From the human T2T-CHM13v2.0 reference genome, Homo sapiens, in NCBI RefSeq assembly GCF_009914755.1, contig NC_060947.1: a DNA stretch of 64,000 nucleotides; one strand, written 5' to 3'. Below are positions 1,897 through 34,022 of this stretch, piece by piece. Made by a program: the position numbers and the translations under genes. Each line of letters starts with the position of its first letter. Positions within the stretch are counted from its first letter, which is position 1. Below the pieces are notes generated by a model. That model was not told where the DNA came from and made no database searches. It worked only from the letters and a program-made list of their open reading frames with translations.

Positions 1897-5721
<3,825 letters not shown>

Positions 5722-6207
5722 ACAATGAGAACACATGGACACAGGAAGGGGAATATCTCACTCTGGGGACTGTTGTGGGGTGGGGGTAGTGGGGAGGGAT
5801 AGCATTAGGAGATATAGCTAATGCTAAATGATGAGTTAATGGGTGCAGCACACCAGCATGGCACATGTATACATATGTAACTAACCTGCACATTGTGCAT
5901 ATATACCCTAAAACTTAAAGTATAATAATAAAAATAAATAAAAATAAAATAAAAATTAAAAAAAAATACATCGACATTTCTATGTGATGTATGCCATCTC
6001 AGTTTTCAGTATATGCATCAGAGAACCACATTCATATTATTTGGCAGGGTCTCAAGGTTTTATAAAAACACTAGAAGTTCATATATGAGTCATTTATTTC
6101 TATAAAATATAGGAGGAAAATCTGGAATCGTGGGAAAGATGGGGGCAGGTAGATTTTGCTGGCAGTCTTTTCTCATCTTTTCATATTTCTTCTTGCATTT
6201 GCTACAG

Positions 6208-6279
6208 ACTGGCCAAGTTAGTCTGTTAACCTACATTCATTGCTGTAGGAGTAGGTGCGAGGAAACACTCAGGTTGCAG
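6208..6279 (+). pseudogene. Candidate degenerate exon encoding the first part (C1-C4) of an EGF module
   Basis: Long polypyrimidine tract plus TACAG acceptor (6206-6207); strong CAG|GTATGG donor; ends TGC AG (Cys-Arg, phase 2); Cys codons at 6224, 6241, 6256 and 6275 lie in two frames, with TAA at 6227. Confidence 0.5.
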
Positions 6280-6679
6280 GTATGGAACTGGAAGCCTAGG
6301 CCTCTTCAACCTCTTCAGAGCAGTGATAGAACTAGTGTAGCCAAAGTGAATACAGGTATAAGCCGTAGGCAAAATGCTGACAATTTAAAAAACAGTCTTG
6401 AGACAGCCCTTGTGGATGAGCCTTATTTTTCTTCATACGTGCCACATCTTCATTGCCTAATGATTGGGAAATCTTGTCAGCCTTCTGCATGCTGACTCAG
6501 TGTGTTAAAACCTGTAGGCTTTAGAGTGCTTGCTCAGGTGGGAAATGGGACAACATAAAACTCTTGAAGGTCTTAAGGAGAAATGTGATGGTTGAGTAAC
6601 AATGAAATGTTTGATTCATTCAAGGGACACCATTTGTTTTTTCCTAATATGTGAGCTTTTTCTATTTCTCTCTATGTAG

Positions 6680-6871
6680 ATGTCCAAATTTCAGAAGTCA
6701 GTGGAAAAATTATGGGTACATGGGGACCAAATGTGACCAACTCTGGAGTACTCTGGATCTGATTTTAGTAGTGGCATTGCTTGGAATACGATTGGCTTTA
6801 ATAGTTGGTGTAACAATCCAGACTATGTACTGCTGTAAAAAGAAGTCAAAGAAGAATATAGCTGACCACTA
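6680..6871 (+). pseudogene. Exon encoding EGF C5-C6 loop, transmembrane helix and basic cytoplasmic start (meprin-beta/IMPG2/ErbB-ligand-like architecture)
   Basis: TTTTTCTATTTCTCTCTATGTAG acceptor; 192-bp open exon (R)CPNFRSQWKNYGYMGTKCDQLWSTLDLILVVALLGIRLALIVGVTIQTMYCCKKKSKKNIADH; GTAAGA donor at 6872. Confidence 0.72.
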
Positions 6872-7304
6872 GTAAGAAATTTCTAAATACCTTGAGAATG
6901 ATGGCAAATCTCTTGTGAGATCAGCAAATGAATCCAGAAATAATGAATATAATTTATCATGCATATTACATACAGGTGGTATGTTCTCTTCCACATTCAT
7001 CAACATCGTAATTAAATTCTAACAAAAGTCAGATTAACACTGCCACACCAGACATATTTTGTTCAGGATTTGGATAAAGTAAAAACTGGAAAGTCACTTC
7101 CCCAGACAGAAGCCAAGTGTAATTCACCAGATAACTGTCCTACTTCAGTGTTTTCCTTCCCACCAAGGGTCAGTATTTGTGTGCACCCCCATATACTGTC
7201 CTAATAGTGTGTGTTGGTTGGGGGTGGGAGACGGCGTACCATTACCTCCCACTCACTCCCTAATCCCAGCAACAATGCCAGATAAATGGAAAGAGGAATC
7301 CAAT

Positions 7305-7655
7305 AGACTTGCTCTAATCTGAATCTGTCTTGGGTAAATCTCTTCACATCATTGGGCTTCATGTTCCTAATCTATAATATAGAAATTGTTATAATCAGAT
7401 CTACCCACCTCACAGAGATGGTGGAATGATACTTAAAGCAGCAATCGTTTATTGAGAGTTTATTATGTGTGTCAGGCTGAATTATAAATGTTTCACACCT
7501 ATCAACTCATTTAAGACTCACCACCCTATAAAGTCCTGATGAGATTACTGAGGCACAAAAAGATCAAATAACTTAGCCAAGGTTACAGGCCTAACTCTGA
7601 ACCCAGGCAGTCTGGCCATCTGGCCACTAGACCTAAACTCTTAACTCCAGACTAT
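7305..7655. mobile_element. MIR fragments (two, opposite orientation)
   Basis: MIR core-like CTTGGGTAAATCTCTT...GGGCTTCATGTTCCTAATCTATAA and ACTGAGGCACAAAAAGATCAAATAACTTAGCCAAGGTTACA. Confidence 0.65.
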
Positions 7656-8699
7656 ATTAATGGAATCTAATGAGATAAAATAGTGCTTAGAAAGCTGTAA
7701 AGCCATGCTATATTCCCTTCACTTATTTGTTTAAAAGCAAACTGTTTCCTTTATACTTTGCACTGTCTCTGAATGAGAGGTATGAGGGGTAAATAACAGT
7801 ATAGTAAAATCTCATAAATTTTATATTGGTAAATTCGAATTAGCATCTACATTAAATTATAATTCCCCAGTGACAAGATAATGTTACCCTCTATGCAGTA
7901 TAAAGGTAGTTTGAAATATTACTTTAAAATTGGAAGAATGGGCTTATAAATTGTAATAAAATCAGCAATTTGAACAGCCTCAGATATTTGTCTCTGGGAG
8001 GAATGAGATAAACTCTCCAACCTTTTTGTCATTTCAAAATCCTAAATTTTGCACCATAATTCCGTATCCTTTCAAGCATCATGTGGTATACATGTATATA
8101 TAGGCATAAAATCAATGCTAAACATTAATTTTTAAAAATTTAAATTACTGTGGAGAATTCCATATCACCATTTGACAGAGGTTGGAAACCCCCTGAGATG
8201 TTAAAGAATCATTATGATTAGAAATCACACCTGTAAACATGTCACTTTTGAACTATTCTCCATAGCTTTCCTACTCCAAGGTTTTCTAGAACACTGGATT
8301 TGTATTCCAATCTTTCTCTTCCTCTAATTGGGTATAACTTTGAGGTGATCACTTAGCCCCTATTTCCTCCTTTAGAAGTAGGGAGAAGGATGATACATAT
8401 CTTACTTCCCTATACTTGTGAGATTCAAATGAAATAATTAATGAAAAATTGTATTGAGAAGCAAAAGTAAAACGGAAAGATTTATAATAAATCTCAAGCA
8501 CTTGGGGTTATTTACATGCTTTTTGGGTAAATAATTAAGCTGCTTTATTTTCTTCCAATTAAAATGCAGTTTAGTTTGAGCTCCATTTTATTCTCCCTCT
8601 GCCATTTCCTGATTTGTGAATTGACAAAGTAACTTTAAATATACTCTGGGAGATTCTTTAGTGTAGTGAAAAAAATAGGGTCCATGGTGCCAGACAGAA

Positions 8700-8830
8700 T
8701 GAGACTCAATTCCCTGCCCCATAAATCACTGACTATGTGGCCTAGGGGCACTTTCTTAAAATTTCTTAGAGTTGGGCTTCTTATCCACAAAATGAAGTTA
8801 AAATTACCTACCTTGCAGGCTTTTTGTAAA
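8700..8830 (+). mobile_element. MIR fragment
   Basis: ACTATGTGGCCTAGGGGCACTTTCTTAAA...CTTCTTATCCACAAAATGAAG...CCTACCTTGCAGG. Confidence 0.6.
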
Positions 8831-8849
8831 TATTTAAATAAAATAATGT

Positions 8850-9075
8850 AATATTTTTGTGAAATATACTGATGTCTGCAATTTACTTTTGGGTGTTTCA
8901 AAAAATAAGGTGTATTAATGGATAGATAAAGGAATGAATAGATGGACAGATATATATTAAAGAAAGTATATTAAAATTTTAATGGTATAATTAAGTTGGT
9001 AGATACATGGGCATTAACTGTAAAATTCTTTCAGCTTTGCTATAAGTTTTAGCGTTTTTATAATAAAATGTTGGA
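8850..9075 (+). mobile_element. Old L1M (L1ME-like) 3'UTR fragment
   Basis: GATGTCTGCAATTTACTTT...ACTGTAAAATTCTTTCAGCTTTGCTATAAG...TAATAAAATGTTGG. Confidence 0.6.
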
Positions 9076-9279
9076 TGAATCAGACAATCTTAAGTAAACC
9101 ACTTTGAACATGGAAAACGTTAAAAAAGGTCACCATTCTTATTGCTTTCTCTTGGGTATAGTCTGAAAATGGGAGCATTCATTCCGTATTGTCGCAAAAC
9201 AGTTTATCAAAGAAAAAGATTTATAACCAATTAAGCAAATGCTCTATCCTATGTCGTTGTTGTTTTTCAAATGTGCCAG

Positions 9280-9373
9280 AGAACAGAGGCGTTCATCAAG
9301 ACTCCAACCTTAGCAGAATTCTGCATATGATTTTGATACTGATATGAGGCCTCCTCAACCTGATCAAGGCCGG
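9280..9373 (+). pseudogene. Candidate cytoplasmic-tail exon with in-frame stop
   Basis: TTGTTTTTCAAATGTGCCAG acceptor, CGG|GTAAAC donor; phase 2 to 0; EQRRSSRLQP*QNSAYDFDTDMRPPQPDQGR, TAG at 9311. Confidence 0.4.
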
Positions 9374-9770
9374 GTAAACACTGGAACTCATTTGCCAGAT
9401 AAACTAAGTTTACAGAAGGCACCATAAACAGAAATGCCTCGGAGAAACAAAAAGAACCTTGGGAGATCAAAGAAGTAGTCAGAGACAACAAAATGAGATG
9501 TAATCAGATCAAATTGCACAAATATGGGATGGTTGATGACAGGTAGAGTACAGGTTGATGATCAGTAGAGTACAGGCCAGGCCTGGGGCATTTACATTGG
9601 GAGTGCTGTCTACTATTCCTCCCCACCATTTGTTTCCAGGTAGCATCAAGTTAAAACACATACCTAAGGCAGCCTTGGGGAAAGTTAAAACATATCAAAG
9701 AGGCAAAGAGGTCCGCAAAAGAGGGCCAGAAAGATATGGATAACAGTACAAGGATTTGAACCATGTGGAG

Positions 9771-9771
<1 letters not shown>

Positions 9772-9818
<47 letters not shown>
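9772..9818. repeat. (TA)n microsatellite
   Basis: Perfect TA run of about 23 units. Confidence 0.97.
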
Positions 9819-9824
<6 letters not shown>

Positions 9825-10860
9825 GTAAATCTCTTCTCATCCAATGTTCCTAGTAGCACAGATTCTCTAACAGAGACTTGTGGGAATCTCTTCAATTCAT
9901 TTCATTGTACTTTAGGAGCAGCTCTGAATGAAGAGTAAGAGGGGTATGTGTGTCATATTAGGCCACAAGTATCAGAAACGGCAGCAATGCTTTTATTGTT
10001 TTAAATCGAACAAATCATATGTAAAACACTACAAAATCATCTTTTTGTTATGGCATACTAAGTCCTAGAATATGCCCAATTATGATCTCTATATTTAAGG
10101 AAGTAATTCTACATATGTTTCTGATATGGCTCTGTCTTAATAACATCAAGGCCAGTTAAATGCTGAAACTCATAAAAAGGTTAAATTAAAGGGTTGATGA
10201 ATCAAGGAGAGTGGCAAGATACTTTCTAGTTGAAGTCAAAAAAATTAAATATTGAAACAAATTATAGTATGAAGGGTTTGTTGTAATCTATAGTATTTTT
10301 CAAAAAAGAAGGTTAAAGTACTCTAGGTGAATATCCTACTATGAATATTGTTGATGTCTCCAAAAGGCTAAACTCTAGAACTGTCAAATGATTTTGGTTG
10401 CCCATTTTTCCCAATTATTTTCTAGATAAACCCTAAAAGTTAGAGAACCGTGCAGGTAGGAGACACCTTTCTTTTTCTAAGGATTCACTTTTTCTTAGTC
10501 TCCCTAGTTACTTCTGTCACCCACCTATTTTTCAAATCTCCGAGTTGACATTCTCATCTTTTCTCCTCTGTAATAATCTCTCTTTTTAACTTAATGCTAT
10601 ACAAGCTCTAATTGTGGATAAAATTCATGAGGAAAGCCAAGTATAATGCCCATCACTTAGGCTATGTTCAATAAATGTCACTCTCCCTTTCCCTGTCTCA
10701 AATTTCCTATGGCTAAATCTCTGCTATAGTTCTTGTTAAATATGAATACTTATGGATACTTTTTATTTAATGCTTTAACCATTTCCTAAACTTTCCTTGT
10801 CTAGGAAAGCCACAAGCGAACTACCATACCTGTCCCAATCTACATATTCTTCTCTTTCAG

Positions 10861-10907
10861 ATTGTTTCCCAAAGTCTGGGGAATTAGGAAGCAGAAATGG
10901 ACTACAG
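10861..10907 (+). pseudogene. Candidate 47-bp exon with in-frame stop
   Basis: Strong acceptor TTCTTCTCTTTCAG, weaker donor CAG|GTTAAC; phase 0 to 2; IVSQSLGN*EAEMDY. Confidence 0.3.
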
Positions 10908-12239
10908 GTTAACAACTTAATAGAAAACTAAGAGACTTTTAAACCAACTTAAACTATTTAGAAAGGTGTCCAGATGCACTTTGCTCTGAACGTACATTTG
11001 AAAGATTGACTTTTGCAAGTAATGACTTCTCAGAAGCTAAGACTTAGATGAAGTTTCCACAGAATTAATGCTTTTTCATGCAAATTCATCACTGTTTTTT
11101 TTTTATTCAGCTAGCTCACACACACAACCAGGAACTAATAAGCAGAGGTTGAATTCATTCTTGAATTGTCTATGTTAACCTTTTCTAACTGATTTAGCAA
11201 TTAGATTTGAGTAAGTTGACGTGAGACTACATATTTGCTACCTCTTCTTCACCCCATCCCCACCTCCACTTTTACGTTTAGCACAAAGTAGCTTATAGCT
11301 TTCAAAGTTGTTACAATTGTGGCATGAGCATATAATTAGAAATCCCAATACATTCTGTAAATCTTTGACAGAAAGGGGTGCTCCATAGTTTAGTCATGTG
11401 AAAAGAATTCACTGTTGCCTTTGTTGGTTATTTTCGTTGTTGTTCTCATCATAAATACCTTTTAAAAATTTATCTACCTTTAAAACAAAGCTTTTATAGT
11501 TCAGCCTTTTCCATAGGAAAGGAATATGCTTGAATTACTTTCACCTGGTGAAAATAAACAACAATTATATTGGGGGAATAAAAACTACATTTCCTAGAGA
11601 TCCAGCTAATGGGCATATTCTTAAGAGTATAGAAATAAATACTGGTATGGCTTAACGAACATAAAAAGAATACCAAGCCATATAATAGAAGCAACAAATA
11701 TGGATAAATGCTCACTGAAAAGGAAGAACACTGAATAATAATCCGATTTTCTAAATGTGGCAGTGATAATCACAAACTTACCATATTATTGACTTTATTA
11801 TATTTTCAAATGGAATAAATTGAAAGTAGGAGGAGACAAGCTAAGCTTTAAATTATCAAGTTTTTAAATCCAGGAAATTATCCTTCCTAGATAATAATAC
11901 AAAAATAATATCTAATTATTTAAAGTATTCTTTACATACCTGAGAGTATTATTATAACTTAATAATTTGTCATTTGAAGTTGTTCATACCATCATCAAAT
12001 AGTTAAATATTATCAAGCACTCCACAACAGACAACACTGTACAAATTGTGATAATCTCCAGCCCTTCACTATAATTTCAATATGTAATATCACTGGATAA
12101 GTATAAGATTAACTCCACCCTATAAGTACCTGGTTAGTTACAGCTTTATGACTGTGCATATTTGCATGGTTAAATCACTATGTCATATCACTTATGTAAT
12201 TCATGAAATGAATATTTTTAGACAACGAGTTATATACAA

Positions 12240-12536
12240 CAGGGGTCCCCACCCTCCTGGCCATGGACCCATACTGAGGGGGCATTAACACCTAAGTTCC
12301 GCCTCCTCTCAGATTAGTGGCAGCATTAGATTCTCATAGGCATGCAAACCCTATTGTGAACTACACATGCAAGAGATTGAGGTTGCATGCTCCTTATGAG
12401 AATCTAATGCCTGATGATCTGAGGTGGAACAGTTTCATCCTAAAACAATCCCCACCTGACTGCCCTACCCCCAATAAATAGAAATATTGTCTTCCGGGAA
12501 ACTGGTCCCTGGTGCCAAAAAGATTGGGGATCGCTG
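12240..12536 (+). mobile_element. MER1B (hAT-Charlie) non-autonomous DNA transposon
   Basis: TIRs CAGGGGTCCCCA.../...TGGGGATCGCTG; internal AGATTCTCATAGG...CCTTATGAGAATCTAATGCCTGATGATCTGAGGTGGAACAG. Confidence 0.88.
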
Positions 12537-12635
12537 ATCTGAAGTGTACTGGAAATAAGAAAGGTAGAAATAACATATTTTACCATGTTTTTTTTCAAAA
12601 TAAATAGTACAACGTTTTGCTTTAAAAAATATTAG

Positions 12636-15306
12636 CCCTCATGGTAACACCACCATGAACACAACTGCATGCAGTTGCTGGAGGGTCCCCCTGACCAAGC
12701 CATGCTGCCTCTGTGAATGCCCACATGGAAGCCAGCAAACTGGCACCTGCTAGCATCCTGCTGTAGCTGATAAGCATGAACCCTGCCATGCTGCCACTGC
12801 TGCTGCTGCTGGGACATGTGAACAAGGATGGATCCTGCTGCCACCACCCTACGAAACACCTTGGCTGGCACCATCCATTGGCGTTCTGGGACCAGCAGGT
12901 CGGGAGCACATAGGCCCCCACCATCACAGTGTGTTCTTAAACTTAAAGAGCCAGAAAACAAAGTCGGGGCCCAATATCAGTCCCCCAGTGTTAGAGCATG
13001 CAGTTCAGGAGTTGTGAGCTGAGCCTTGGCCCCTTACAATCTTCCAGAAATGAAGTCAGCTGACTGAACCCACCTTACACCATAATCAAACTCTCAAGGT
13101 CATCAAATAGGAGAAAAGAAAAAAAAATCTAGAGGACAGCGACTTTAAAGATGGAAGGAATATCAGCCCATAAACATGAGAAAGAATCAGTGCAAGGTCT
13201 CTGACAACTCAAAAAGCCAGAGTGCCTTCTTTCCTCCAAACAACCACACTAGCTCTCCAGCAAGGGTTCTGACCTGGGATGAGATGGCTGAAATTACAGA
13301 AATAGAATTCAGAATATGGATAGGAACAAAGATCATCAAGGTGCAGCAGTAAATTGAAACCCAATCCAAGAAAACTAAGGATCACAGTAAAACGATACAG
13401 GAGCTGACAGAAAAAATAGCCAGTATAGAAATGAACGAAACTGACCTGATAGAGCTGAAAAACACACTACAAGAATGTCATAATGCAATCCCAAGTAGAA
13501 TACCAGAATAGACCAAGCTGAAGAAAGAATTCCAGAGCTTGAAGACTGGCTTTCTAAGACAGTCAGAAAAGAATAGAGAAAAAAGAATGAAAAGGAAAAA
13601 ATAAAACCTCCGAGAAATATGACATTATGTAAAGCGACCAAATCTATGACTCACTGGTGTCCCTGAAAGATGGCAAGAATGGAAGCAACTTGGAAAACAT
13701 ATTTCGGGTTGTCATACATGAGAACGTCCTCAACCTAGCAAGAGAGGCTAACATTGAAATTCAGGAAATGCAGAGAACTCCAGTAAGTTACTTCACAAGA
13801 TCTACCTGAGACACACATCATCAGTTTCTCCAAGGTTGAAATGAAAGAAAAAAATCTTAAAGGCAGCTGGAGAGAAAGGTCAGGCCACGTACATCAGACT
13901 AACAGTGGAACTCTCAGCAGAAACCCTACAAGCCAGAAGAGATTGGGGGCCAATATTCAACATTCTTAAAGAAAAGTAATAACAACCAAAAATCTCATAT
14001 ACGGCCAAACTAAGCTTAATAAGCAAAGGAAAAATAAGATTCTTTTCAGATAAGCAAATACTGAGGAAATTTGTCACCACCAGACATTCCTTAAAAGAGT
14101 TCCTGAGGGAAGCAGTAAGTATAGAAAGGAAAGACCAGCCACTACAAAAACACACTGAAATACACAGACCAGTGACACTATAAAGGAACCACACGAACAA
14201 GTCTGCATAATAACATCTAACACATCATGATGACAGGATCAAATCCACACATATCAATACTAACCTTCAATGCAAATGGGCAAAATGCCCCAATTTAAAA
14301 GGCACAGAGTGGCAAGCTCAATAAAGAAGCAAGATCCAATGGTATGCCATCTTCCAGAGACCCATCTCACATGCAGTGACACACACAGGCTCAAAATAAA
14401 GCAATGGAAAAAATCTGCCAAGCAAATAAAAAAAAAAAAAAAACAGAAAAAGCAGGGGCTGCAATCCTAATTTCAGACAAAACAGACTTTAAACCAACAG
14501 AGATCAAAACAGACAAAGAAGGGAACTACATAACAGTAAAGGGTTCAATTCAACAAGAAGACCTAACTATCCTAAATATATATGCAGCCAATACAGAAGC
14601 ATCCAGATTCATAAAGCAGGTTCTTAGAGACCTACAAAGAGACTTAAACTCCCACATAATAATAATGGGAGACTACAATACCTACTGACAGAATTAGACA
14701 GACAATTGAGGCAGAAAATTGGATATTCAGGACCTGAATTCAGCACTGGACCAAATAGACCTCACAGACATCTACAGACCTCTCCATCCAAAACTAACAG
14801 AATATATATTTTTCTAATTGCCGCATGTCACATTCTCTAAAATCGACCACACCATTGGACATAAAACAATCCTCAGCAAATGTAAAAGAACTGATATCGT
14901 ACCAACCACTCTCTCAGACCACAGTATGATAAAATTAGAAATCGAGACTAAGAAAAATCACTTGAACCCATATAGTTATGTGGAAATTAAATAATCTCCT
15001 CCTGAATGGCTTTTGGGTTAATAATGAAATTAAGGCAAAAATCAAAAAGTTATTTGAAACTAATGAGAACAAAGACACAACATACCAGAATCTCTGAGAT
15101 ACAGCTAAGGCAAAGTTAAGAAAGAAATTATAGCAGTAAATGCCCACGATAAAAAGTTAGAAAGGTCTCATGTTAAAAACCTAACATCACATCTAAAAAG
15201 AGAACCAGGAGCAAACCAACCCCAAAGCTAGCAGAAAACAGGAAATAACCAAAACCAGAGATGAACTGAAGGAGACTGAGACAAGAAAACCATTCAAAAG
15301 ATCAAT
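12636..15306 (+). mobile_element. L1PA13-16-like element, 5' part (partial 5'UTR, ORF1, ORF2 endonuclease)
   Basis: Degenerate ORF1 (~13175-14140) and ORF2 start ATGACAGGATCAAATCCACAC at ~14230; breaks at the QKIN codons. Confidence 0.88.
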
Positions 15307-18706
<3,400 letters not shown>

Positions 18707-19857: not shown

Positions 19858-19932
<75 letters not shown>

Positions 19933-23250: not shown

Positions 23251-24483
23251 CAAAAATATTTAGTTGTCCAGAAACACTAAAGGAATCTCAGTAATTGAAC
23301 AGGAATATTTTTTCTGCGACATTTTATTTTGCCTTTCTCAGATCAACAGTGATATATGGAAAATATTAGTTTACTTGGTTTAAACTAATATTTAAATCTA
23401 AGATGATTCAAAGCAATCTATGTACCGATGAAAAGCAAACAGTATGTCTTACAATCTTAGGCTAATGTCCACAGCAGGAAAGAACAATTAGTAAAATCAT
23501 GAATTATCCCTCTGTTTTTACTTTCACTTAAAAGTCTGTCTTTTGGTTTGTATACAGCCATGTTTCATGGCTTGAGAAAATCAGGAATTTCCATATAAAT
23601 GTGTTAACTGAGTTTGGATTCCAGTGTAAAATGCAAAACCTGTGTAAGTCAAACATTGATTTGGATAAATGAAATGCAAATGCGCTTAAAACAATAGTAG
23701 TCTTTAATGAAGAAACAATATATGAGACAAAAAGAAAGAAGTTAGCTCTTTTGTTAGAGGTCTAGACAAAGGATCATTTGTGAATTTGATATTTTTCTTC
23801 CAGTTATTAACATTATCTGGTATAAGCATGGGACATACAACAGAAATTATATAAATGCTTGAACACATGAATTAATGCATTAATGAACAAATACTCTCAT
23901 GAGTTTTATTTTACTGTGCGAATAAATTTTCATAAAATATCATGTGTGTCATATCTGGATGATCTGATCACTAAAAAGGTTACCTGTAGAGTCAAGAAAA
24001 TCTTGCATAACTGGTAATTTAAAAGTAAGAAATACTAATAGAATAATATGGTCATAAGCCATAAATGTCAGCCACTGATTACAAGAGAGCACATATGAGA
24101 ACCGGCATAAATCAGGGTAAACTTATTCTCATTCCTGTATTGTGATCACAAGGCAAAAGTCTGCTTTAGGCGCCCTAGTGATCTAGTTAGAACTAAATAT
24201 TTCTTTTATTGTTGGTTGTTTACTTTTTGAATCTCATAAGATTGAATCCATGGGAATATTAAAACTTAACTGTGAATATTTATTTTTATAATAGCATCAA
24301 CACTCTAAGAACTGTACTTTCTTGTATCGTTATTTCAATTATGTTATTGAAGTACGGTTAATGAATACATAATTGCAATCTGCAATATCATTCTAATGTT
24401 TTCATGTTTAGAAAATCTCTCCTTTTCTGTTTCTGTTCAAATTATGATAAGAAAATCTAGCTTTCTTTTCCTATTCACATAAG

Positions 24484-24569
24484 TGTAAATACCCTCAACC
24501 TGAAAAGAGAAGATATAAAGTCTCTCTCACATTCAGGAACTTTGTCCTTGCTAAATACTCCTGAATCGA
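24484..24569 (+). pseudogene. Candidate 86-bp exon
   Basis: CTTTCTTTTCCTATTCACATAAG acceptor, GA|GTAGGT donor; open in phase 2 to 1 (VNTLNLKREDIKSLSHSGTLSLLNTPES); phase 0 reads CKYPQPEKRRYK. Confidence 0.3.
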
Positions 24570-25214
24570 GTAGGTCATTAGAAAAGACATTACTCTTTTT
24601 CTAGTTTCTAAAAAATGGGGACAAAACTTACCCACCTTGTGGGAACTATATATAGCAACAAATCATTCACTATATGAGGCTATAGCTAGCATTCTTTAGT
24701 TTACAAAATGAAGAGTAAAGCCCTTGTAAGTATTTCTGCATACTCTGCTCAAAAGAGCATTGTATTAAGTGAACAAATCCTCTCTCATGTGTTTATGAGC
24801 ATTAATGTCTAGATTGCAGGAATGATTTAAAGAGAATGCCAAGTTAAAGAAATTGTTCTACTAATGACAACGTCTAGTAGTGCCATGGCAGACTGACAGG
24901 AGATATAATTCAATACATAATTTGTTTGCCCCTGAAATCATATCACTCACACTGCTTTTGAAGTTATCACTGTGGCCACAATTTCCTGAATTCTTCACTA
25001 AGACATTAAAAAGCAAGAAAGGAAAATTATCAACCAATTATCTTATATCTTCTTTCCTTCAATTATCTTATATCTTCTTTCCTTCTCCTTCAAACCCTCT
25101 GGAACTTTTACTGGGAGAAAAAGGCAGTATTCATGTGGATATTTACCTAAAGAGGATATACGCATGTATGTGGGGAATGTCTGTAAAGTGTTTAACCATA
25201 ACATTCATTTACAT

Positions 25215-25440
25215 AGACATTTATTTAAAAATGTTTATTGAGTATCTACTAGATGTTAGACACTCTATTTGATACTGGAGATGTAATGTCAAATAACACA
25301 AACAGTTTTGCCTATCATAGTGCTTCTAGTCTAGTAAAAAAGATGATTATACATGAAATATTCATACAAATAAATGTGAAGTTGTTACTGTGAGAAGTGT
25401 TTAGAAGGAAGACAATGTGGTGCTTAGAGAGTTCAAATAG
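25215..25440 (-). mobile_element. L2 3' fragment
   Basis: ATGTTTATTGAGTATCTACTAGATGTTAGACACT...CTTCTAGTCTAGT. Confidence 0.6.
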
Positions 25441-26718
25441 TATGAATACTAGACCAGAGGCAAAGGAAAGTGCTTTCCTTTATTCTATACTTCAAATGTC
25501 CTACCATTCTTTCATCTTTCCTTCTGTTCTCTATGCTTCTTTGACAGACTGTCTTAACTTAGGGCTCATATAGGCACGTCTTATGCAATAATAAATACAT
25601 AAATACATGGATCAACAATTTAAAAAATAATTAAAATACAACTTTTAACCACTACCTTGTGTTAAACTACTGTTAATATATTGCCTAGATTGTATGACAT
25701 CATAGATAGATAACATGAATCCTAAAAGTCCTACTTACAAAGAAAACAAAAACAAACAAATAGAAACCTGGTTACAGGGTTATTAGCTGGTTTGGGAGCC
25801 ATAAGATTAGATTAGTTTTGTACCTCTATAAGATGGGCATCTATATTAAAAAGAAAAGCCAAGAGAAAGAATGTTATATTTTGACTAAAGTCCTAAAATT
25901 TCTTAATTTTTATTCTGATTTTTCTTGCCATGTTAGTTAATATTATGATGCCCTCAAATTTTCTAGAATTATTTTTAAAATATGTTTTTATAAACAAATA
26001 TCCACGCCATGAGAAAAAGCCACTAGATGAAATTCTCCATTTTTAAAAGTAGATGGTGATGGCAGTGATTAACTTTTATATCATTGTTCATGTTTTCCAA
26101 GTCTTTGAGCAGGAGCCTCTTCTGTGAAAACTCAAAATAATAAAACCTGTAGTTAAGGACCCAGGGCCAAATTATTTACTGGACTGTACAAGTAGTATCA
26201 GATTATGCTTATTTTCATAAAATTTTAAGTGATTTGCATTATACTAAAGGCATTTTAAAACAAGACTCCATCAAGTAAAAAATAGGAAAATATGAAACTG
26301 TAGATATTGAAGGATCAGTACTATCCTTTTTTCTAATGTATACATAAATTATAGAAATACATTTACCAAAATATGGACTGCATTTTTCTTTATGGGTGAG
26401 ACTACAGGTCTTTTTTTCCCCATTATTGAAATTTTTCCATGGTTTTCTTTTTTTTATGATATTAAATGTTTTATTTTCTAATATACATTTTTAAGTTGTT
26501 GATTAATATTGACAGATTTTCAAAGCCATTATAGTTTTGAAGTTTTTCCCCTTCTACCCATATACAACTTTCCAAATTAGGAGATATAACTTTTAGAGGA
26601 AAGCATTTCAAACACTTAAACACACACGTTAAAAAAAAATTGTAAGGTTTTAAGTGTAAACATGCATTTGATCTATATGTCCTATGTTTTCACAATCTTT
26701 TAAATTGCCTCCAGAAGT

Positions 26719-27210
26719 CTTTTTTTTTAATTATTATTATACTTTAAGTTCTAGGGTACATGTGTGCAACGTGCAGGTTTGTTACATATGTATACATGTG
26801 CCATGTTGGTTTGCTCCACCCATTAACTCGTCATTTACATTAGGTATATCTCCTAATGCTATCCCTCCCCCCTCCCCCATCCCCACGACAGGCCCTGGTG
26901 TGTGATGTTCCCCACCCTGTGTCCAAGTGTTCTCGTTGTTCAATTCCCACCTATGAGTGAGAACATGCGGTGTTTGGTTTTTCTGTCCTTGTGATAGTTT
27001 GCTCAGAATGATGGTTTCCAGCTTCATCAATGTCCCTACAAAGGACATGAACTCATCCTTTTTTATGGCTGCATAGTATTCCATGGTGTATATGTGCCAC
27101 ATTTTCTTAATCCATTCTATCATTGATAGGCATTTGGGTTGGTTCCAAGTCTTTGCTACTGTGAATAGTGCCGCAATAAACATACGTGTGCATGTTTCTT
27201 TATAGCAGCA
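26719..27210 (-). mobile_element. 5'-truncated L1PA (PA5-7-like) 3' end
   Basis: TTATACTTTAAGTTCTAGGGTAC...; ORF2 C-terminus [17 protein letters not shown] on the minus strand. Confidence 0.93.
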
Positions 27211-27279
27211 ATAAAAAGACCAAATACCTAAGCATATACTTAATAATAAAAGTATAAGACCTGTATGGATAAAACTTTT

Positions 27280-27571
<292 letters not shown>

Positions 27572-28039
27572 GGATAAAACTTTTAAACACCAGAAATCTA
27601 AGAGAATAACTTAACAGATGGGGAAAGACATACCATTTTCATGGACAATCAAAATCAAAATCAAATAGTGTAAATTTTCTCTCAACTAATAACATTCCCA
27701 TGATTGCAATAAAAATATAATAGATTTGTAATATTTGTTTTAGCTAGATGAACTGATTGTAAATTTCATATGAAAATAAATAGAGAATGAAACTGAAAAA
27801 GACAATGAGAAGATACTAGTCTTATCAGATATTAAAATATAAGACTTTAATAACAAAACCTATATGGTACAGAGGCATTAATAAACAATCCAACAAAGCA
27901 AAAATGAATCTAGGCATTGACTAGACATCAGAATTTAGTACACTGTAAGTGTGAAGGAGAGTTGGAATAATTATCTAGTGTTGTGACAACCAGGAAGCAA
28001 TTTAGAAAAAATTAATATTGGATCTATGCCTTACAGAAA

Positions 28040-28219
28040 TGATTTTCAGTGTGGTTCAGACCAGTGCATCAGCATCAACCATGGAACTTGTTAGTAGTGA
28101 AATTTGTTGGGCCCCTCTCCAGACTTAGTGAATTAGAACCTCTAGGGCACACCCCAGCAATCTGTTTTAAAAAGTTCTCTAGGTGATTTGAATGCATGCT
28201 CAAGTTTTAGACTGCCTGC
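28040..28219. mobile_element. MER5A (hAT-Charlie)
   Basis: CAGCATCAACCATGGAACTTGTTAG...CCCAGCAATCTGTTTTAAAAAGTTCTCTAGGTGATT...CAAGTTTTAGA. Confidence 0.78.
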
Positions 28220-28489
28220 CTTACTCTATACACCAGAGTAATTCAAAATAAATCAAATATTTACCTATAAAGAATTGAAACCATATAACTACTAGAAGAA
28301 AATAGGAGAGAAATCTTTTATAACATTGGAGTAGGAAAGTTCTTTCCAACTATGACTCAAAATACAGCAACCATAAAAATTACTAATAAAATTTTACCAC
28401 ATTGGAAACAAAACAAAACACTTCTAAATTGACAAATCACCCTGAGAAAAGACATGAGGAAACTGTAATAAAACATTTGCAACTCATAT

Positions 28490-28965
28490 TTTATTAACCA
28501 GAATCCCAGGAAGAAACAGATGGCACAGGAAATCAGATTAATTAAAGGACAGTTTAATAAAGGGACTATTTGGAAAGGTGTGGACAGATTAAATAAAGGA
28601 ACCACAATAATGTAATACCCCAGAGCTGGAAATATTAAGGCTTTTGACGCCCCTTGGCTTAAAAAAAATGAGGAGAGGGAATGGTTACTGGAACCTGGGA
28701 GGAAAGAATTTTATGGAGAAGACCACTTTAGTCAAGGGGGGCAGTCATTGCAAGGCAACCTGGTAAAGAAGGAGCTGGAGGAATAAATACTTCAATCTTA
28801 CTCTCCTCCCTCCCTCTTATCTCCTGATATTACTTCCTATTGACCAAACTCAATCAGAAGCCAGAGGCCAAGGAAGCCCATTGATAATTATATGGGTCAG
28901 CATTCTGAGGGCAGAGAGCAAAGATGGAGATTACATCTAAAGCACCAAACAAAAGATATCCAGGA
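28490..28965 (-). mobile_element. MaLR solo LTR (MLT1-like)
   Basis: CCCAGGAAGAAACAGATGGCACA...TTTAATAAAGGGACTATTT...CCTATTGACCAAACTCAATCAGAAGCCAGAGGCCAAGGAAGCCCATTGA. Confidence 0.7.
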
Positions 28966-29814
28966 TAAATATTACAAAGGGCTAATTTTCCTTAATATAT
29001 AAAGATATCTTCAAAATCTTGAAGTAAAGGATCAACAACTTATTTTTTAAAATGGGCAAATTAGATGAACAGTTACTGAAAAGGAAACTCAAATGGATCT
29101 TATACATATAAAAAGACTTCACTCATAATAAGAGAAATGTGACTATAATCACACTGAGGTACCATTTTTGTCTACCATTTTGGTAAAGATATGAAAGCGT
29201 GATAATATATTCTATTGGCAAGACTGCGAGGAAAATGGCTGGTGAAAAAGCAGTATGGCAATTACAAATGCATATATCATTTGACTCAGCTATATCACTT
29301 CTGGTAGTCTATCCTATAGAATATATTTCCACAGGTACAAACTGATGAATTCACACAACTTTTATTGCAGTATAAATTGCAGTAGAAAAGAACTGGAAAC
29401 CAGACAAATGCCTACTAAGAGAGCCTGGTTAAATAAATCTATCGTACATCTATACAATGGAATGCTATGGAACTTTACAAAAGAAGAATAGTTATCTCTG
29501 TACTGATCTGAATAGCTCTCCAAGATATGCTAAGTGAACAAAACAATGCACAAGAGTGTGTATAATATGTTTGCTTTTCTGTATGAAAAGAGAGGAAATT
29601 AGAATATATGTACATATTTGTTTACATTTATATAAATAAATTCTACACAAGCAACCATAAAATTGATTGCTGTTTAGGGGGTCAGAGGTTGGGAACTGAG
29701 TGGTTGGAGAAGATAAGTCGGAAAAAATTTTTCTCTATTTAAATTAGTACTCATTCAGAAATTTTTCAGTGTTTTGCTTTTAATAATGGAATAAATAAAA
29801 GTATGTTTTAAAAG

Positions 29815-30360
29815 CAATCTGGCAGACACCACCTTAACTATGTAAACCAAGGTTAACATTACTAGTAATAAGATATATCAACATCATGTAATCCCTAATA
29901 AGATGCACTATGAAGGGCAGGTCACTTCTGTGGTTTTCTTGCCAAAAATGAGTGGCCTCAATGTAATCATGAGAAAGCATCAAACTCATTGAAGGGACAT
30001 TCTACAAAATAACTGACTAGCATTATTCAAGTGTGTCAAGGTCATATAAAACAAAGACTGGGTGTCTCTAAACAGAGTTGAAGAGACTAAGGAGAGAGAA
30101 GTACAATGTGGGATTCTGAATTAGATCCTAGACCAGGAAAATTATATTAGTGGGAAAACTGTTGAAATTCACATAAGATCTAGAGTTTAGTTAATATTGT
30201 TCCTTTGCTATTTTCCTGATTTTGATAATGTACTATGGTTACATAAGGTATGAGAACTAGGAGAAGCTGAGTCAAAGTAATATGAGAACTCACTGTACTA
30301 TTTTTGCAACTTTTTTGTAAGTCAAATTATATCAAACTTAAAAAGTTATTTTAAAATAAA
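29815..30360 (+). mobile_element. L1MC-like 3'UTR fragment
   Basis: CTGGCAGACACCACCTTAAC...GGGACATTCTACAAAATAACTGAC...TGTACTATTTTTGCAACTTTTTTGTAAGTC. Confidence 0.75.
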
Positions 30361-30684
30361 CATTTGTTGCGAACCTCTCAGGTCCCCAGTCCTTTGCTGG
30401 GATGTGTGGGAATACAGACAAACATCATTATTCTTGATATTCGGGATATGACAAAAATCCATGAAACAATGGACAAGTCTAGGTCAAGTTCTTCTGTCAT
30501 ACACTCTTGTAGGAAGATGTTTCTCTCTTTTGTAACACATCTCACTGTGCAACTATATACCCAATTTGGGTGGTTATTTTTTAAATGTTTGCTTTCCTTC
30601 TAGACTCTAAGTGTAATAGGAGCAGGAAAAATATTCTGTACATATTGTACATGATTTATGTCATAAAGTATAGATAGGACATTT

Positions 30685-30985
30685 ATGTGGAAGAGCAATT
30701 ATACTAATTTTGCACAGTTCCAAAAGGCAGAACCAAAACTAATGGTGGAGATTACAGGGTGGGGGAAATTTCAGCTCAATGTAATGCATTTAGTTTCTAA
30801 CAATTGGGTCAATAAATAATTAAATGGATTGTTCCAGTGAGGTGGTTCACACCTAAAAAAAATCCTTCAAAATTGGAAGCATTCCAGAAGACTAAGATGA
30901 GATAGAAGAAGCATCTTCAGATGGGAAAGCAGACTAGAGGTCAGCTAAGATTATATGATATTCCAGTGTAAGATTCTGTATCCTT
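30685..30985 (+). mobile_element. CR1/L3 3' end
   Basis: GGCAGAACCAAAACTAATGGTGGAGATTACAG...TTTCAGCTCAAT...TTTCTAACAATT...GTGAGGTGGT. Confidence 0.7.
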
Positions 30986-31360
30986 TTCAGCATATCATAT
31001 TTTAGATTTCCTTAAGCTTCCTTCATATTTGAAGAATCAAAGGAGGTTTTTTGGCCATCCTTTAACTCTGTGATCTCAGTATGTCATATGTCAAGGTTAC
31101 CCTTTGAAGCCCATTTTCTAATAAATAACATTTAGCTCACAGAAGATTATCTGTTTCAGTTCTGCCTCTCATTCAGCCTTGGCAGATCCCTATGTAGATT
31201 ATCCTCATCAATTTGACAGTTCATTCCCAAGAATGCCAACAGCAAATATTAGTCTAGAAGAAATTCTGGAGACCATCTATTTAATGACAGATGCTCTCTC
31301 TAGCTCCATGCTGACATAAATTTTAAAGGTCCTTTGGTATGGAAACCTGTCAAAGATTTT

Positions 31361-31499
31361 GTTTTTGTTTTTGTTTTTGTTTTAGAAACAGTCTCCCTAT
31401 GTTTCCCAGGCAGGTCTTGAACTCTTGGGCCCAACTGATCCTCCTGCCTTAGCCTTCCAAGTAGCTGGAATTCTAGTAGTGCAACACAAGTGCCTGGCT
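31361..31499 (-). mobile_element. FLAM (Alu left monomer) with (GTTTTT)n tail
   Basis: CTATGTTTCCCAGGCAGGTCTTGAACTCTTGGGCCCAA...CCAAGTAGCTGGAATT; flanked by TGTCAAAGATTTT and TGTCAAAAGTTTT. Confidence 0.82.
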
Positions 31500-31561
31500 T
31501 TTGTCAAAAGTTTTTGAAGGTCTAAATGAGTTATAACCACTTCAGCCCACACAAAATGCTC

Positions 31562-31618
31562 AAAAAAAAAAAAACAAAAACAAACAAACAAACAAACAAA
31601 AAAAAACAAAAAAACAAA
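31562..31618. repeat. A-rich (AAAC)n simple repeat
   Basis: AAAAAAAAAAAACAAAAACAAACAAACAAACAAAC... Confidence 0.9.
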
Positions 31619-31942
31619 CCTCTAGCTGATTTAGTCAGTCGTAATTTTTCTTTACAGAAATCATGATTATTTTTACCTTTTAGGTTATGTTTTCTTAAGC
31701 ATTTGATGATCTTTGTTAATCTACCACCTCACTCACCATGAAAGAACAAGAATTATTGGTCTATAGTTCTCATTATTCTATCTTTATGGAATGTAGTTAA
31801 CATGGTGATCATTTGTAACAAAATGCAACACTTCTTGGTCATTTGTCCCACATTTCAACTTTTACTTCCAGACTCTTCAGGAGATGCTCTCTGGCCATTA
31901 TGATTCTCCTATACTTAGTAAATTGATTAACTCTTGACCAAT

Positions 31943-32158
31943 GATTTCAAATGGAACTTTCCGTGATGATGTAAATGTTCTATAAATCTGTGCTGTACAG
32001 GATGTTACCCACTAGGCACATGTGGCTATTGTGGACTTGAAATGTGGCAAGTATAACTAAGGAACAGATTTTTAGAATTTTCATTTTATTTTGTTAAATT
32101 CAAATTTGTATGTAAATAGCCACATGTGGCTAGTGGCTACTATATTGGACAGAACAGA
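31943..32158. mobile_element. MER3 (hAT-Charlie)
   Basis: GAACTTTCCGTGATGATGTAAATGTTCTATA...AAATAGCCACATGTGGCTAGTGGCTACTATATTGGACAG. Confidence 0.82.
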
Positions 32159-32594
32159 TATAGACCATTCTACACATTTAAAATAATTTACACAATACCT
32201 CTGACATTTGATTTACTAAACCTTTTGAGACAAGTGCTATTCTTAATATTTTTCTCAGTAAAAACCAATGAAAATAATTCATGTAGTCTGTTATCTAATT
32301 TAAAAAAAATATCAGAATAGTTTTTGTTTCTGTTTCCTCATTTTCCACTTTGGGTTAGAGTGTACTAAGCTCCGAGTTTGGAAGCATGTGATCAGCATCT
32401 GAGAAATCGTTCAGTGATCTTGATCTTTTCACTTACTTGATTTATTTAATCAGAACCTATTGAATCACAGTAATCGAGTAGTTCTAATGTTTTCTTTTTC
32501 TTTTCCCAATCAACTGTCCATTCAATATTCATTAGCCTTTACTGTGAGCTAGGTACTCTGGGATGCAATAGGAATAAGGTAATGGAGTAGAGAA

Positions 32595-33075
32595 GAACTA
32601 ACATATATTGAGCATCTACCATATGCCATATTTTCCTATATATAGGATATCTATAAAATAGGACTTCTGTTTTAATTTTCAACACTGCCCTGCATAGTCT
32701 TACTACCTCTATTTTTACAAACAAGGAAATCAAGGGCAAGAAACGTTAAGAGACTGCACAGGGCCATGGGACTAAGCAACAGAACCAGGATTCAAAACCA
32801 GGTCTTTGAACTAGAAGTTCAATCTTCTTTCTACTAAACCACAGCTGACTCCTGAATAATTAAAAAAAAAACACACACACACAATAATACCTAGCATAGT
32901 TTGAGTATTCATGTGCCAGGATGTATGCTGGGTACTTTATATACATTACCATTTAATCCTCACAATATCCTCAAAACTCATTTAATCCTCACAACATCCT
33001 CAAAACTCATAGGAATGAGTTTTACAGATAAGAAACTATAAAACACAGGTTAAATAACTTTAAGTTAGCAGGGTC
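32595..33075 (-). mobile_element. Two MIR elements
   Basis: CTAACATATATTGAGCATCTACCATATGCCA...ATTTTTACAAACAAGGAAATCAAGG; TTTAATCCTCACAA...TTTTACAGATAAGAAACT. Confidence 0.7.
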
Positions 33076-33258
33076 AAATGCTTTAGCGAGGTCAAAAAGG
33101 ATTTAAATAGTCAGCTTTTCTACCACGTTCAAAGCACTCTATTAGGTTGGGACAGAGTAGGCAGATCACTGTCTTCAAAAGTCTTTTCCTCTTCCATTCT
33201 CTTCAGTATTCCTTCCCTCCCCTGTTCACTGTCTATATGAAGTCAGGCAGTGGAGGAA

Positions 33259-33549
33259 TGTTCTGAGAATGCACCATTAGGCACTTCTGTTATTATGAGA
33301 ACATCATAGAGTGTACTTACACAAACCTAGATGATATAGCCTACTACATACCTAGGCTATATGGTATAGCCTATTGTTCCTAGGCTACACACATGTACAG
33401 TATGTAACTGTACCGAACACTGTAGGCAACCAACACAATGGTATGTGTGTATCTAAACATATTGTTTATATTGTGTTATAATCTTATGGAACAAGCATCA
33501 TATATGCCATCTGTCATTGACAGAAATGTCCTTATGTGGCAAATTACTA
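33259..33549 (+). mobile_element. Tigger3-family (MER7-type) Tc1/mariner relic
   Basis: AACATCATAGAGTGTACTTACACAAACCTAGATGATATAGCCTACTACATACCTAGGCTATATGGTATAGCC...TTGACAGAAATGTCCTTATGTGGC. Confidence 0.8.
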
Positions 33550-33907
33550 TAATTTATCAAAGTATATTCAATCTGAAAATCAAGTTAATGATACATAATT
33601 TTCATTTATTGCAAATTTGATTCCTGTTACAAATTGTATTCCAATTATATTGGAGTAGGCAGATCCAGGGTGGAATGTGCTTAAAATTAAGACTGGACTC
33701 AAAGTTAACAGCAGAGCAGCTGCTTCTAGTTTATAAGCTCCTGATTCAATTTTCTCCATCTTGTTTCATGACTTAGCTATTCTACCTTGTCTCACACATT
33801 TCAGATTTTGACTTTTTTATAACATTCAAAAATGTTATATATATTTTCAAGATGCATATAGTTAATTTCCTTATTCTCCTTATTTTAATTTCTCTTCTTT
33901 GCTTCAG

Positions 33908-34022
33908 GAGACATTAAGTACAATCTAAGTGGAAAGATGAGAACTGCTGCTGGCCAAGATTATAAAAATCGTTTAACAAGAGAAAAATGTGTCATTTGAT
34001 AAAAAACCTCAACCTGAAAAAC
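33908..34022 (+). pseudogene. Candidate 115-bp exon with strong splice sites and an apparent +1 frameshift
   Basis: TTTCTCTTCTTTGCTTCAG acceptor, AAC|GTAAGT donor; phase 1 DIKYNLSGKMRTAAGQDYKNRLTRE then TGA at 33997; removing one A from the A5 run (33983-33987) gives ENVSFDKKPQPEK. Confidence 0.45.

What the first reader, a model, noticed from the sequence alone, without database searches (positions are those of the whole stretch)
6208..34022. Phase-consistent chain of six candidate exons over 28 kb, suggesting a unitary pseudogene
Seen: AG/GT-bounded segments in non-repeat islands chain in phase: 6208-6279 (ends phase 2), 6680-6871 (2-2), 9280-9373 (2-0), 10861-10907 (0-2), 24484-24569 (2-1), 33908-34022 (starts phase 1). 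The deduced tail is hydrophilic and rich in Ser/Pro/Tyr, with an NxxY-like motif (NSAY). Its lesions are simple: two TAG codons one transition from CAG (9311, 10885), a TA|A junction stop and one extra A in an A-run. Inference: a gene lost in the primate lineage whose introns then took sense-strand L1s. Caveat: I picked candidates by eye, so part of the phase agreement may be selection bias, and the 10908 donor and 24483 acceptor are weak.
Basis: inference. Interest (0 to 1): 0.7.

Follow-up and report, generated by a model that had tools for sequence, protein, structure and literature searches.

The report
Dead human copy of mouse 2010106E10Rik
Two of the six proposed exons are real remains of a membrane-protein gene that many other mammals still have intact, but the other four are chance picks and the true remaining exons lie elsewhere, partly inside a neighbouring non-coding RNA gene.

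Summary
The core of the finding holds and the chain does not. Segments 6680-6871 and 9280-9373 are relic exons of an unprocessed pseudogene. Its intact orthologues, about 270 aa, occur in many placental mammals, a turtle, a kiwi and a toad. One rat protein is named 'similar to RIKEN cDNA 2010106E10'.

An orthologue profile scores these two segments 114.7 and 27.1 bits. The other four reader segments score 0.4 bits or less, inside the null range. About 4.2 million phase-consistent three-exon chains can be built in the same intron.

- Signal-peptide exon: window -3614..-3539.
- Three cytoplasmic-tail exons: 64961-65043, 65632-65769 and 71997 onward.

The tail exons fall within the span of lncRNA LOC101928128. 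The cysteine-rich exon 2 cannot be found in this 134 kb region or elsewhere in the genome.

I count six stops (one at a splice junction), two one-base deletions and the missing exon. No intact copy exists elsewhere in the genome.

Verdict: a genuine unitary pseudogene, which is an ordinary kind of thing. I did not find it in the RefSeq table supplied or in three published lists.

The parts
1..5966 (+). Full-length sense-strand L1 in the intron between relic exons 1 and 3. It begins outside the window at -210. It is flanked by an 18-bp target-site duplication (17 of 18 identical; -228..-211 and 5964-5981), so the insertion itself removed nothing. Relic exon 1 lies further upstream, outside the window, at -3614..-3539 (chrX 83572386-83572461). 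Exon 1 reads MVDRLFILS*ILFISWCFLTVRCE*, with TGA at -3587, TAA at -3542 and the donor GTAAGA at -3538.
   Evidence: L1: Pfam Transposase_22 on 811-1833 and RVT_1 on 3626-4783, both + strand; flanks read. Exon 1: the signal-peptide sub-profile scores 26.5 bits against a next best of 4.8; alignment score 58.9 against a 99th percentile of 35.3; sequence read.
6680..6871 (+). It encodes the end of the Cys-rich ectodomain, the transmembrane helix and KKKSKK. All 63 codons are open, the acceptor is a pyrimidine tract followed by TAG|A, and the donor is TA|GTAAGA. Two of 15 columns invariant across tetrapods are changed (W>G, P>L), and an Arg has appeared inside the helix.
   Evidence: 71-81% identity to 25 intact proteins. 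tblastn E 1.8e-26 to 1.9e-31 with 8 of 8 queries. 108.7 bits. Invariant columns counted.
9280..9373 (+). Its first base completes the junction stop TA|A. A TAG at 9311 lies where orthologues have Gln. The donor is GTAAAC at 9374. Some orthologue isoforms read 30 nt further (VNT.TH...).
   Evidence: 45.8 bits against a next best of 0.7. tblastn E 1.1e-10 to 0.084 with 8 of 8 queries. 21 of 31 residues match the orthologue majority.
63656..63861 (+). Annotated first exon of lncRNA LOC101928128. Its part 63786-63851 matches an alternative exon used in a bat isoform of the orthologue (P0021).

The remaining relic exons follow outside the window, within the lncRNA's span:
- Exon 5, 64961-65043: open.
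- Exon 6, 65632-65769: TGA at 65687 and a one-base deletion near 65717.
- Exon 7, 71997-72236: TGA at 72078, a one-base deletion near 72132 that removes the stop, and AATAAA at 72212-72217.
   Evidence: First exon: tblastn finds 14 of 22 identical residues, E 1e-4 in the 134 kb region; a GT follows 63861; exon coordinates come from the hub's table.

Exons 5-7:
- Whole-genome hits with E 0.065 and 1.7e-6.
- Sub-profiles score 21.8, 18.3, 19.8 and 70.3 bits against a background of 1.0 or lower.
- Alignment scores are 38.9, 97.0 and 122.3 against 99th percentiles of 21.9, 26.4 and 28.9.
- Sequence read.

Best explanation
The locus is the decayed, unprocessed human copy (a unitary pseudogene) of a seven-exon gene.

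The ancestral gene encoded a type I membrane protein of about 270 aa:
- a signal peptide;
- a small ectodomain with eight cysteines and two N-x-T sites;
- a juxtamembrane W-Y-M-G-x-K-C motif and transmembrane helix related to the C-terminal exon of a meprin-type gene on chr18;
- a KKKSKK stop-transfer;
- a Ser/Pro/Tyr-rich tail of about 150 aa with NSAY/NPxY.

The orthologue is the mouse/rat 2010106E10Rik gene, which lies downstream of APOOL on the X chromosome.

In human the relic spans about 76 kb (window -3614 to 72236), antisense within a SATL1 intron. Exons 1, 3, 4, 5, 6 and 7 survive with all ten splice dinucleotides. Exon 2 is gone. The reading frame carries six stops and two one-base deletions, so no protein of this family can be made.

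Shown: homology, exon mapping, the lesions, and the absence of another copy in the genome.

Inferred:
- The loss happened in primates.
- The three exons of lncRNA LOC101928128 that lie outside the window are relic exons 5-7, using the ancestral poly(A) site.
- The ancestral protein worked at the gut and kidney epithelial surface.
For: (1) Intact relatives exist.
- 25 proteins out of 152 candidates, 71-81% identical to the translated 6681-6869.
- 54 proteins out of 446 candidates with the zebra protein as query. They include a rat protein named 'similar to RIKEN cDNA 2010106E10', a turtle, a kiwi and a toad.

(2) Per-exon profiles from 27 orthologues were run over 134 kb in six frames. Six of seven exons appear in collinear order on the + strand, at 18-109 bits against a background of 5 bits or less. 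A frameshift-tolerant alignment gives the same result.

(3) A whole-genome search with the zebra protein finds only these chrX relics, a 28%-identical chr18 exon and one E=4 hit.

(4) The lesions were read directly.

(5) Synteny is consistent.
- Predicted models in mouse lemur, naked mole-rat, pig and Egyptian rousette fuse APOOL to this gene.
- Human APOOL exons lie upstream on the same strand.
- The mouse gene is on X, + strand (PMC4197816, table passage).

(6) Constraint is relaxed. Two of 15 invariant columns in exon 3 are changed.

(7) Exon boundaries agree with orthologue isoforms that skip exon 5 (P0043) or exons 5 and 6 (P0018).
Against: - Exon 3 is fully open over 63 codons. With about 6 stops in about 237 relic codons, roughly 1.6 would be expected, so zero is unremarkable (Poisson about 0.2, my arithmetic).
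- No DNA from other mammals was available. Orthology rests on protein models and fusion models, not on a genome alignment.
- The timing of the loss is untested.
- The lncRNA exons outside the window were not visible to me.
That is noise level.
Confidence: 0.9

Rival explanations
1. The reader's six-exon chain is the true structure of the lost gene, or of a primate-specific splice form of it.
For: All six segments have AG/GT borders and consistent phases. One tblastn hit at E=10 overlaps segment 5.
Against: Four of the six segments score within the null against the orthologue profile. The orthologue sequence after exon 4 maps to 64961-72131 instead. About 4.16 million equally phase-consistent chains exist in the same intron. 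Segment 1 ranks 500 of 536 blocks for the exon 2 profile.
Confidence: 0.02
2. Part of the locus still encodes something in human, such as a small membrane peptide from the open exon 3 or an APOOL read-through isoform that uses it.
For: Exon 3 has 63 open codons and intact splice sites. APOOL-to-this-gene fusion models are predicted in four other species.
Against: - Exon 1 holds two stops and exon 2 is absent, so a signal peptide cannot be joined in frame.
- The exon 3/4 junction is a stop.
- Residues invariant across tetrapods are changed and an Arg now lies in the helix.
- RefSeq annotates no exon here (hub table).
Confidence: 0.04
3. The relics are a duplicated or processed pseudogene of the chr18 meprin-type gene rather than the remains of a separate gene.
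For: NCBI names some orthologues 'meprin A subunit beta-like'. The chr18 exon aligns with E 5e-10.
Against: Identity to the chr18 exon is 17 of 61 (28%), against 71-81% to the separate orthologue family. Introns are retained, so it is not processed. No astacin or MAM part lies beside it: MAM hits on chrX are far away. The family exists as a separate gene back to amphibians.
Confidence: 0.01

Closest known systems
Mouse/rat 2010106E10Rik and the uncharacterised LOC proteins of other mammals (P0001-P0055)
   Same: Same exon order and phases. The relics match the orthologue majority at 159 of 224 aligned residues. They lie in the same neighbourhood downstream of APOOL on X. NSAY, KKKSKK and WYMG.KC are shared.
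   Different: The human copy has six stops and two frameshifts and lacks exon 2. The rodent gene is expressed in gut and kidney, and I saw it only in gene tables of PMC4197816, PMC5880790 and PMC9871501 (passages). Its function is unstudied in those papers.
Meprin beta (MEP1B), C-terminal EGF-like/transmembrane exon on chr18
   Same: The juxtamembrane WYMG-x-C motif, the transmembrane helix and the basic stop-transfer align at 28% identity over 61 aa, E 5e-10. MAM-domain exons lie 5-10 kb upstream of that chr18 exon on the same strand. The gene name is my recollection plus NCBI's '-like' names.
   Different: The family has no astacin, MAM or TRAF part. It is only about 270 aa with no Pfam domain. 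It has a long Tyr-rich tail that did not align with the chr18 exon.
Published human unitary pseudogenes (Zhang et al. 2010, PMC2864566)
   Same: Unprocessed, syntenic, disabled, and with no functional counterpart in the genome.
   Different: This locus is not in that paper's supplement. It is not in PMC7555810's text or supplement. It is not in the supplementary files of PMC6886504 that the look-up reported as searched. All were searched for 2010106E10, SATL1, APOOL and ZNF711.
lncRNA genes built from pseudogenised coding exons (Xist from Lnx3 is the classic case; recalled, not checked here)
   Same: An annotated lncRNA (LOC101928128) overlaps relic exons 5-7, ends 19 nt after the relic's AATAAA, and starts in a sequence matching an orthologue's alternative exon.
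   Different: No function is known for LOC101928128. Its three exons outside the window were not visible to me.

Membership tests
Unitary (unprocessed, orphaned) pseudogene | Clear homology to a gene that is intact in other species | tested here: met
   25 and 54 intact relatives. Six relic exons at 18-109 bits.
Unitary (unprocessed, orphaned) pseudogene | Ancestral exon-intron structure retained (not a retrocopy) | tested here: met
   Relic exons are separated by introns of 0.6-55.6 kb and all have AG/GT borders. The boundaries match exon-skipping isoforms P0043 and P0018.
Unitary (unprocessed, orphaned) pseudogene | Disabling lesions in the ancestral frame | tested here: met
   Stops at -3587, -3542, the 6870-71|9280 junction, 9311, 65687 and 72078. 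One-base deletions near 65717 and 72132. Exon 2 undetectable.
Unitary (unprocessed, orphaned) pseudogene | No functional copy elsewhere in the same genome | tested here: met
   Whole-genome six-frame searches with the zebra and mouse-lemur proteins find only the chrX relics and the 28%-identical chr18 exon. The tool scores only its best candidates.
Unitary (unprocessed, orphaned) pseudogene | Orthologous (syntenic) position | tested here: inconclusive
   APOOL fusion models in four species and the mouse X/+ location support it. No genome alignment was available.
2010106E10Rik-like membrane protein family (functional member) | Eight conserved ectodomain cysteines, seven of them in exon 2 | tested here: not met
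   The exon 2 profile finds nothing in 134 kb: best 2.8 bits, on the wrong strand. Alignment scores stay at background. The whole-genome search with the lemur protein leaves residues 236-268 unmatched.
2010106E10Rik-like membrane protein family (functional member) | Invariant W73 and P95 (zebra numbering) in the juxtamembrane/TM exon | tested here: not met
   Human has G and L at these columns; 13 of 15 invariant columns are kept.
Meprin (astacin metalloprotease) | Astacin catalytic, MAM and TRAF domains | tested here: not met
   Pfam finds no domain in three full-length orthologues at E<=1, apart from a sub-threshold TMEM154 hit. No MAM hit lies near the locus.
EGF-like domain protein (UniProt's label for some orthologues) | Match to an EGF family model or an EGF fold | tested here: inconclusive
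   No Pfam EGF hit. The AlphaFold2 model had mean pLDDT 41, too poor for a fold search.

The most novel reading that the evidence does not exclude
The lost gene encoded a gut and kidney brush-border partner or competitor of meprin beta. It shares only meprin beta's juxtamembrane/transmembrane module, and its loss is common to all anthropoid primates. Rodent models would then carry a regulator of meprin-type shedding or signalling that humans lack. The 3' half of the dead gene would live on as the spliced lncRNA LOC101928128, built entirely from ancestral exons.
Probability: 0.1. Interest if true: 0.55.

Novelty: new member of a known kind. Interest (0 to 1): 0.3.

Why it matters
It adds one well-documented gene loss to the human catalogue. 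A conserved tetrapod membrane protein that mouse expresses in gut and kidney has no human counterpart, which matters when mouse data for 2010106E10Rik are carried over to human.

It also gives an origin for an 'uncharacterized' lncRNA, LOC101928128.

For the scan itself, it shows that phase-consistent AG/GT chaining by eye cannot find exons in a 55-kb intron. An open frame with a clean transmembrane helix, by contrast, was a true signal.

Tried and rejected
- The PDB sequence search with the zebra orthologue and with the chr18 exon gave only chance-level hits, E>=0.12. The chr18 gene could not be named that way. I used the MAM exons beside it instead.
- Pfam found no domain in the orthologues.
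- AlphaFold2 on a 20-sequence alignment gave mean pLDDT 41 and pTM 0.16, so I ran no fold search.
I used the single mouse-lemur protein instead.
- I tested whether 6208-6279 is the decayed exon 2. It scored 0.4 bits in the wrong frame and 23.0 in the alignment, rank 500 of 536 blocks. Rejected.
- I tested whether the L1 insertion deleted exon 2. The L1 has an 18-bp target-site duplication, so the deletion was a separate event. Rejected.
- I looked for the squirrel isoform's extra exon (P0020) in the region. No hit better than E 0.74.
- Three papers on human unitary pseudogenes or new coding regions, searched in the parts named under Closest known systems, gave no mention. In PMC6886504 two supplementary files were not searched.
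- Papers naming 2010106E10Rik (3 found) or LOC101928128 (1 found) mention them only in gene lists.
The relic exons outside the window are therefore described inside the neighbouring parts and in the text.
Full report
**What was checked first.** Each has AG before it and GT after it. Their lengths (72, 192, 94, 47, 86, 115) give the stated phases. Read from 6681, segment 2 is 63 open codons containing a hydrophobic helix followed by KKKSKK. Segment 3 read from 9281 contains NSAY and one TAG at 9311. The junction 6870-71|9280 reads TA|A.

**Intact relatives.** The translated 6681-6869 finds 25 proteins (of 152 candidates; lengths 112-2000) at E 1.8e-25 to 1.9e-14 and 71-81% identity.
- They come from alpaca, sloth, zebra, hippopotamus, several bats, tenrec, naked mole-rat, hare, marmot, squirrels and chinchilla, plus four unnamed records.
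- With the zebra protein (273 aa) as query, 54 proteins of 446 candidates match. They include murid rodents, a rat protein named 'similar to RIKEN cDNA 2010106E10', a turtle, a kiwi and a toad.
- A search among shorter proteins adds 11 of 27 candidates, with no named primate.
- Across these 65 clusters the only named primate is a mouse-lemur model, P0008. It fuses APOOL to exons 2-4 of this gene and reads exon 4 in the -1 frame. That is the same frame that gives 'NRGVHQDSNLS...' in human.

**Which reader segments are real.**
- tblastn of 8 of the 25 proteins against the window gave two places with E<0.1 for all 8. These were 6672-6869 (E 1.8e-26 to 1.9e-31) and 9278-9373 and beyond (E 1.1e-10 to 0.084). 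Everything else was at E>=0.17. That includes one hit over segment 5, seen with 1 of 8 queries at E=10.
- A profile of 27 full-length orthologues scores segment 2 at 114.7 bits and segment 3 at 27.1 bits.
- Segments 1, 4, 5 and 6 reach 0.4, -2.7, -1.9 and -1.9 bits in their best frame.
- The null of 1500 random intron segments has median -2.2, 99th percentile 2.6 and maximum 5.3.
- The 54.6 kb after exon 4 holds 754 segments with a pyrimidine-rich AG and a consensus-like GT, and about 4.16 million phase-consistent three-exon chains with at most one stop each. Phase agreement therefore carries no weight.

**Where the other exons are.** The window's genome is held, so I searched it whole with the zebra protein.
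- Besides the two window exons, it finds chrX 83640955-83641053 (window 64955-65053; E 0.065) and 83647997-83648131 (window 71997-72131; E 1.7e-6).
- It also finds a chr18 exon (E 0.019) and one E=4 hit.

I then fetched 60 kb upstream and 10 kb downstream. I ran per-exon sub-profiles over all six frames with X at stops:

| Exon | Window position | Bits | Next best |
|---|---|---|---|
| Signal peptide | -3614..-3543 | 26.5 | 4.8 |
| TM exon | 6681-6869 | 108.7 | 1.4 |
| Tail exon 1 (cy1) | 9278-9370 | 45.8 | 0.7 |
| Tail (cy2), piece 1 | 64961-65056 | 21.8 | -0.7 |
| Tail (cy2), piece 2 | 65627-65719 | 18.3 | -0.7 |
| Tail (cy2), piece 3 | 65707-65766 | 19.8 | -0.7 |
| Last exon | 71997-72131 | 70.3 | 1.0 |

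- The Cys-rich exon 2 profile finds nothing; its best hit is 2.8 bits on the minus strand.
- A frameshift-tolerant profile-to-DNA alignment gives the same picture. Six exons stand far above the 99th percentile of 536 blocks. Exon 2 has no signal.
- The mouse-lemur protein, the closest relative that has exon 2, leaves its residues 236-268 unmatched anywhere in the human genome.

**Anatomy and lesions (read directly).**
- *Exon 1:* ATG at -3614, TGA at -3587 (Arg in orthologues), TAA at -3542 (Gln), donor GTAAGA.
- *Exon 2:* absent.
- *Exon 3 (6680-6871):* open.
- *Junction of exons 3 and 4:* TA|A, where orthologues have Arg.
- *Exon 4 (9280-9373):* TAG at 9311, where orthologues have Gln.
- *Exon 5 (64961-65043):* open.
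- *Exon 6 (65632-65769):* TGA at 65687 (Trp), and a one-base deletion near 65717.
- *Exon 7 (from 71997):* TGA at 72078 inside a three-codon insertion. A one-base deletion near 72132 removes the NY-stop. AATAAA lies at 72212-72217.

All ten splice dinucleotides of the six relic exons are kept. The relics match the orthologue majority at 159 of 224 aligned positions. In exon 3, two of 15 columns invariant from toad to horse are changed (W>G, P>L), as is one of 15 near-invariant columns (Y>C). The openness of exon 3 is not evidence of selection. With six stops in about 237 codons, about 1.6 would be expected in 63 codons.

**Surroundings.**
- The intron between exons 1 and 3 holds a full-length sense L1 (-210..5966). 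ORF1 and RT domains lie on the + strand.
- The L1 has an 18-bp target-site duplication, 17 of 18 identical. It therefore did not remove exon 2.
- The annotated lncRNA LOC101928128 (63656..72236, four exons; hub table) spans relic exons 5-7 and ends 19 nt after the relic's AATAAA.
- Part of its first exon (63786-63851) matches an alternative exon of a bat isoform, 14 of 22 residues, E 1e-4.
- I infer that the lncRNA is the still-transcribed 3' half of the dead gene. Its three exons outside the window were not shown to me.

**What the ancestral protein was.**
- From the alignment: a signal peptide, two N-x-T sites, eight conserved cysteines, W-Y-M-G-x-K-C, a transmembrane helix, KKKSKK, and a Ser/Pro/Tyr-rich tail.
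- The NxxY is NSAY in 23 of the 32 proteins where my pattern found one. It is NPAY in a bat and the kiwi, and NPGY in the turtle. That is the canonical NPxY form, whose role in endocytosis and PTB-domain binding is textbook knowledge and was not tested here.
- The juxtamembrane/TM exon is 28% identical (17 of 61, E 5e-10) to a chr18 exon. That exon lies 5-10 kb downstream of three MAM-domain exons on the same strand. This fits NCBI's label 'meprin A subunit beta-like'; that the chr18 gene is MEP1B is my recollection.
- The family itself has no Pfam domain.
- An AlphaFold2 model was too poor to use, at pLDDT 41.
- In print I found the mouse gene only in gene tables, seen as passages. These were an Apobec-1 editing target in small intestine on X/+ (PMC4197816), a kidney expression list (PMC5880790) and a cecum expression list (PMC9871501).

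**Is it known?**
- RefSeq's table for the window has no pseudogene here.
- None of the terms 2010106E10, SATL1, APOOL and ZNF711 occurs in the supplement of Zhang et al. 2010.
- None occurs in the text or supplement of PMC7555810.
- None occurs in the supplementary files of PMC6886504 that the look-up reported as searched; two files were not searched.
- I could not consult GENCODE.
- I rate it a new member of a known kind and of modest interest.

Noticed in passing
window -210..5966 (L012:9790 to window 5966): Full-length sense-strand L1 with a 340-codon open ORF1 (811-1833) and a broken ORF2. It is flanked by an 18-bp target-site duplication, 17 of 18 identical (-228..-211 and 5964-5981).
   Followed up: partly
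window 63786-63851: Part of the first exon of LOC101928128 matches an alternative, frame-shifting exon used in a Molossus isoform (P0021) of the orthologous gene: 14 of 22 residues, E 1e-4. The human version has two stops in that frame.
   Followed up: partly
P0008 (Microcebus murinus model) versus window 9280-9345: The mouse-lemur APOOL-fusion model keeps exons 2 and 3 open but reads exon 4 in the -1 frame and stops at the TGA equivalent to window 9343. This is either a lemur frameshift or a gene-model artefact. It bears on when the gene died in primates.
   Followed up: no
G000:C5:146531615-146532325 (+): A contiguous match to residues 1-236 of the lemur MIC27/APOOL protein at 80% identity, with four stops. 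It looks like a processed APOOL pseudogene on chr5.
   Followed up: no
window 9374-9403: The 30 nt after the exon 4 donor translate to VNTGTHLPDK. This matches the 10-residue extension (VNTETHLSNK, VNTETHLTNE) present in Mus caroli and ground-squirrel isoforms, so it is an ancestral alternative donor. In human the site that follows reads CTAAGT.
   Followed up: partly
   Followed up: no
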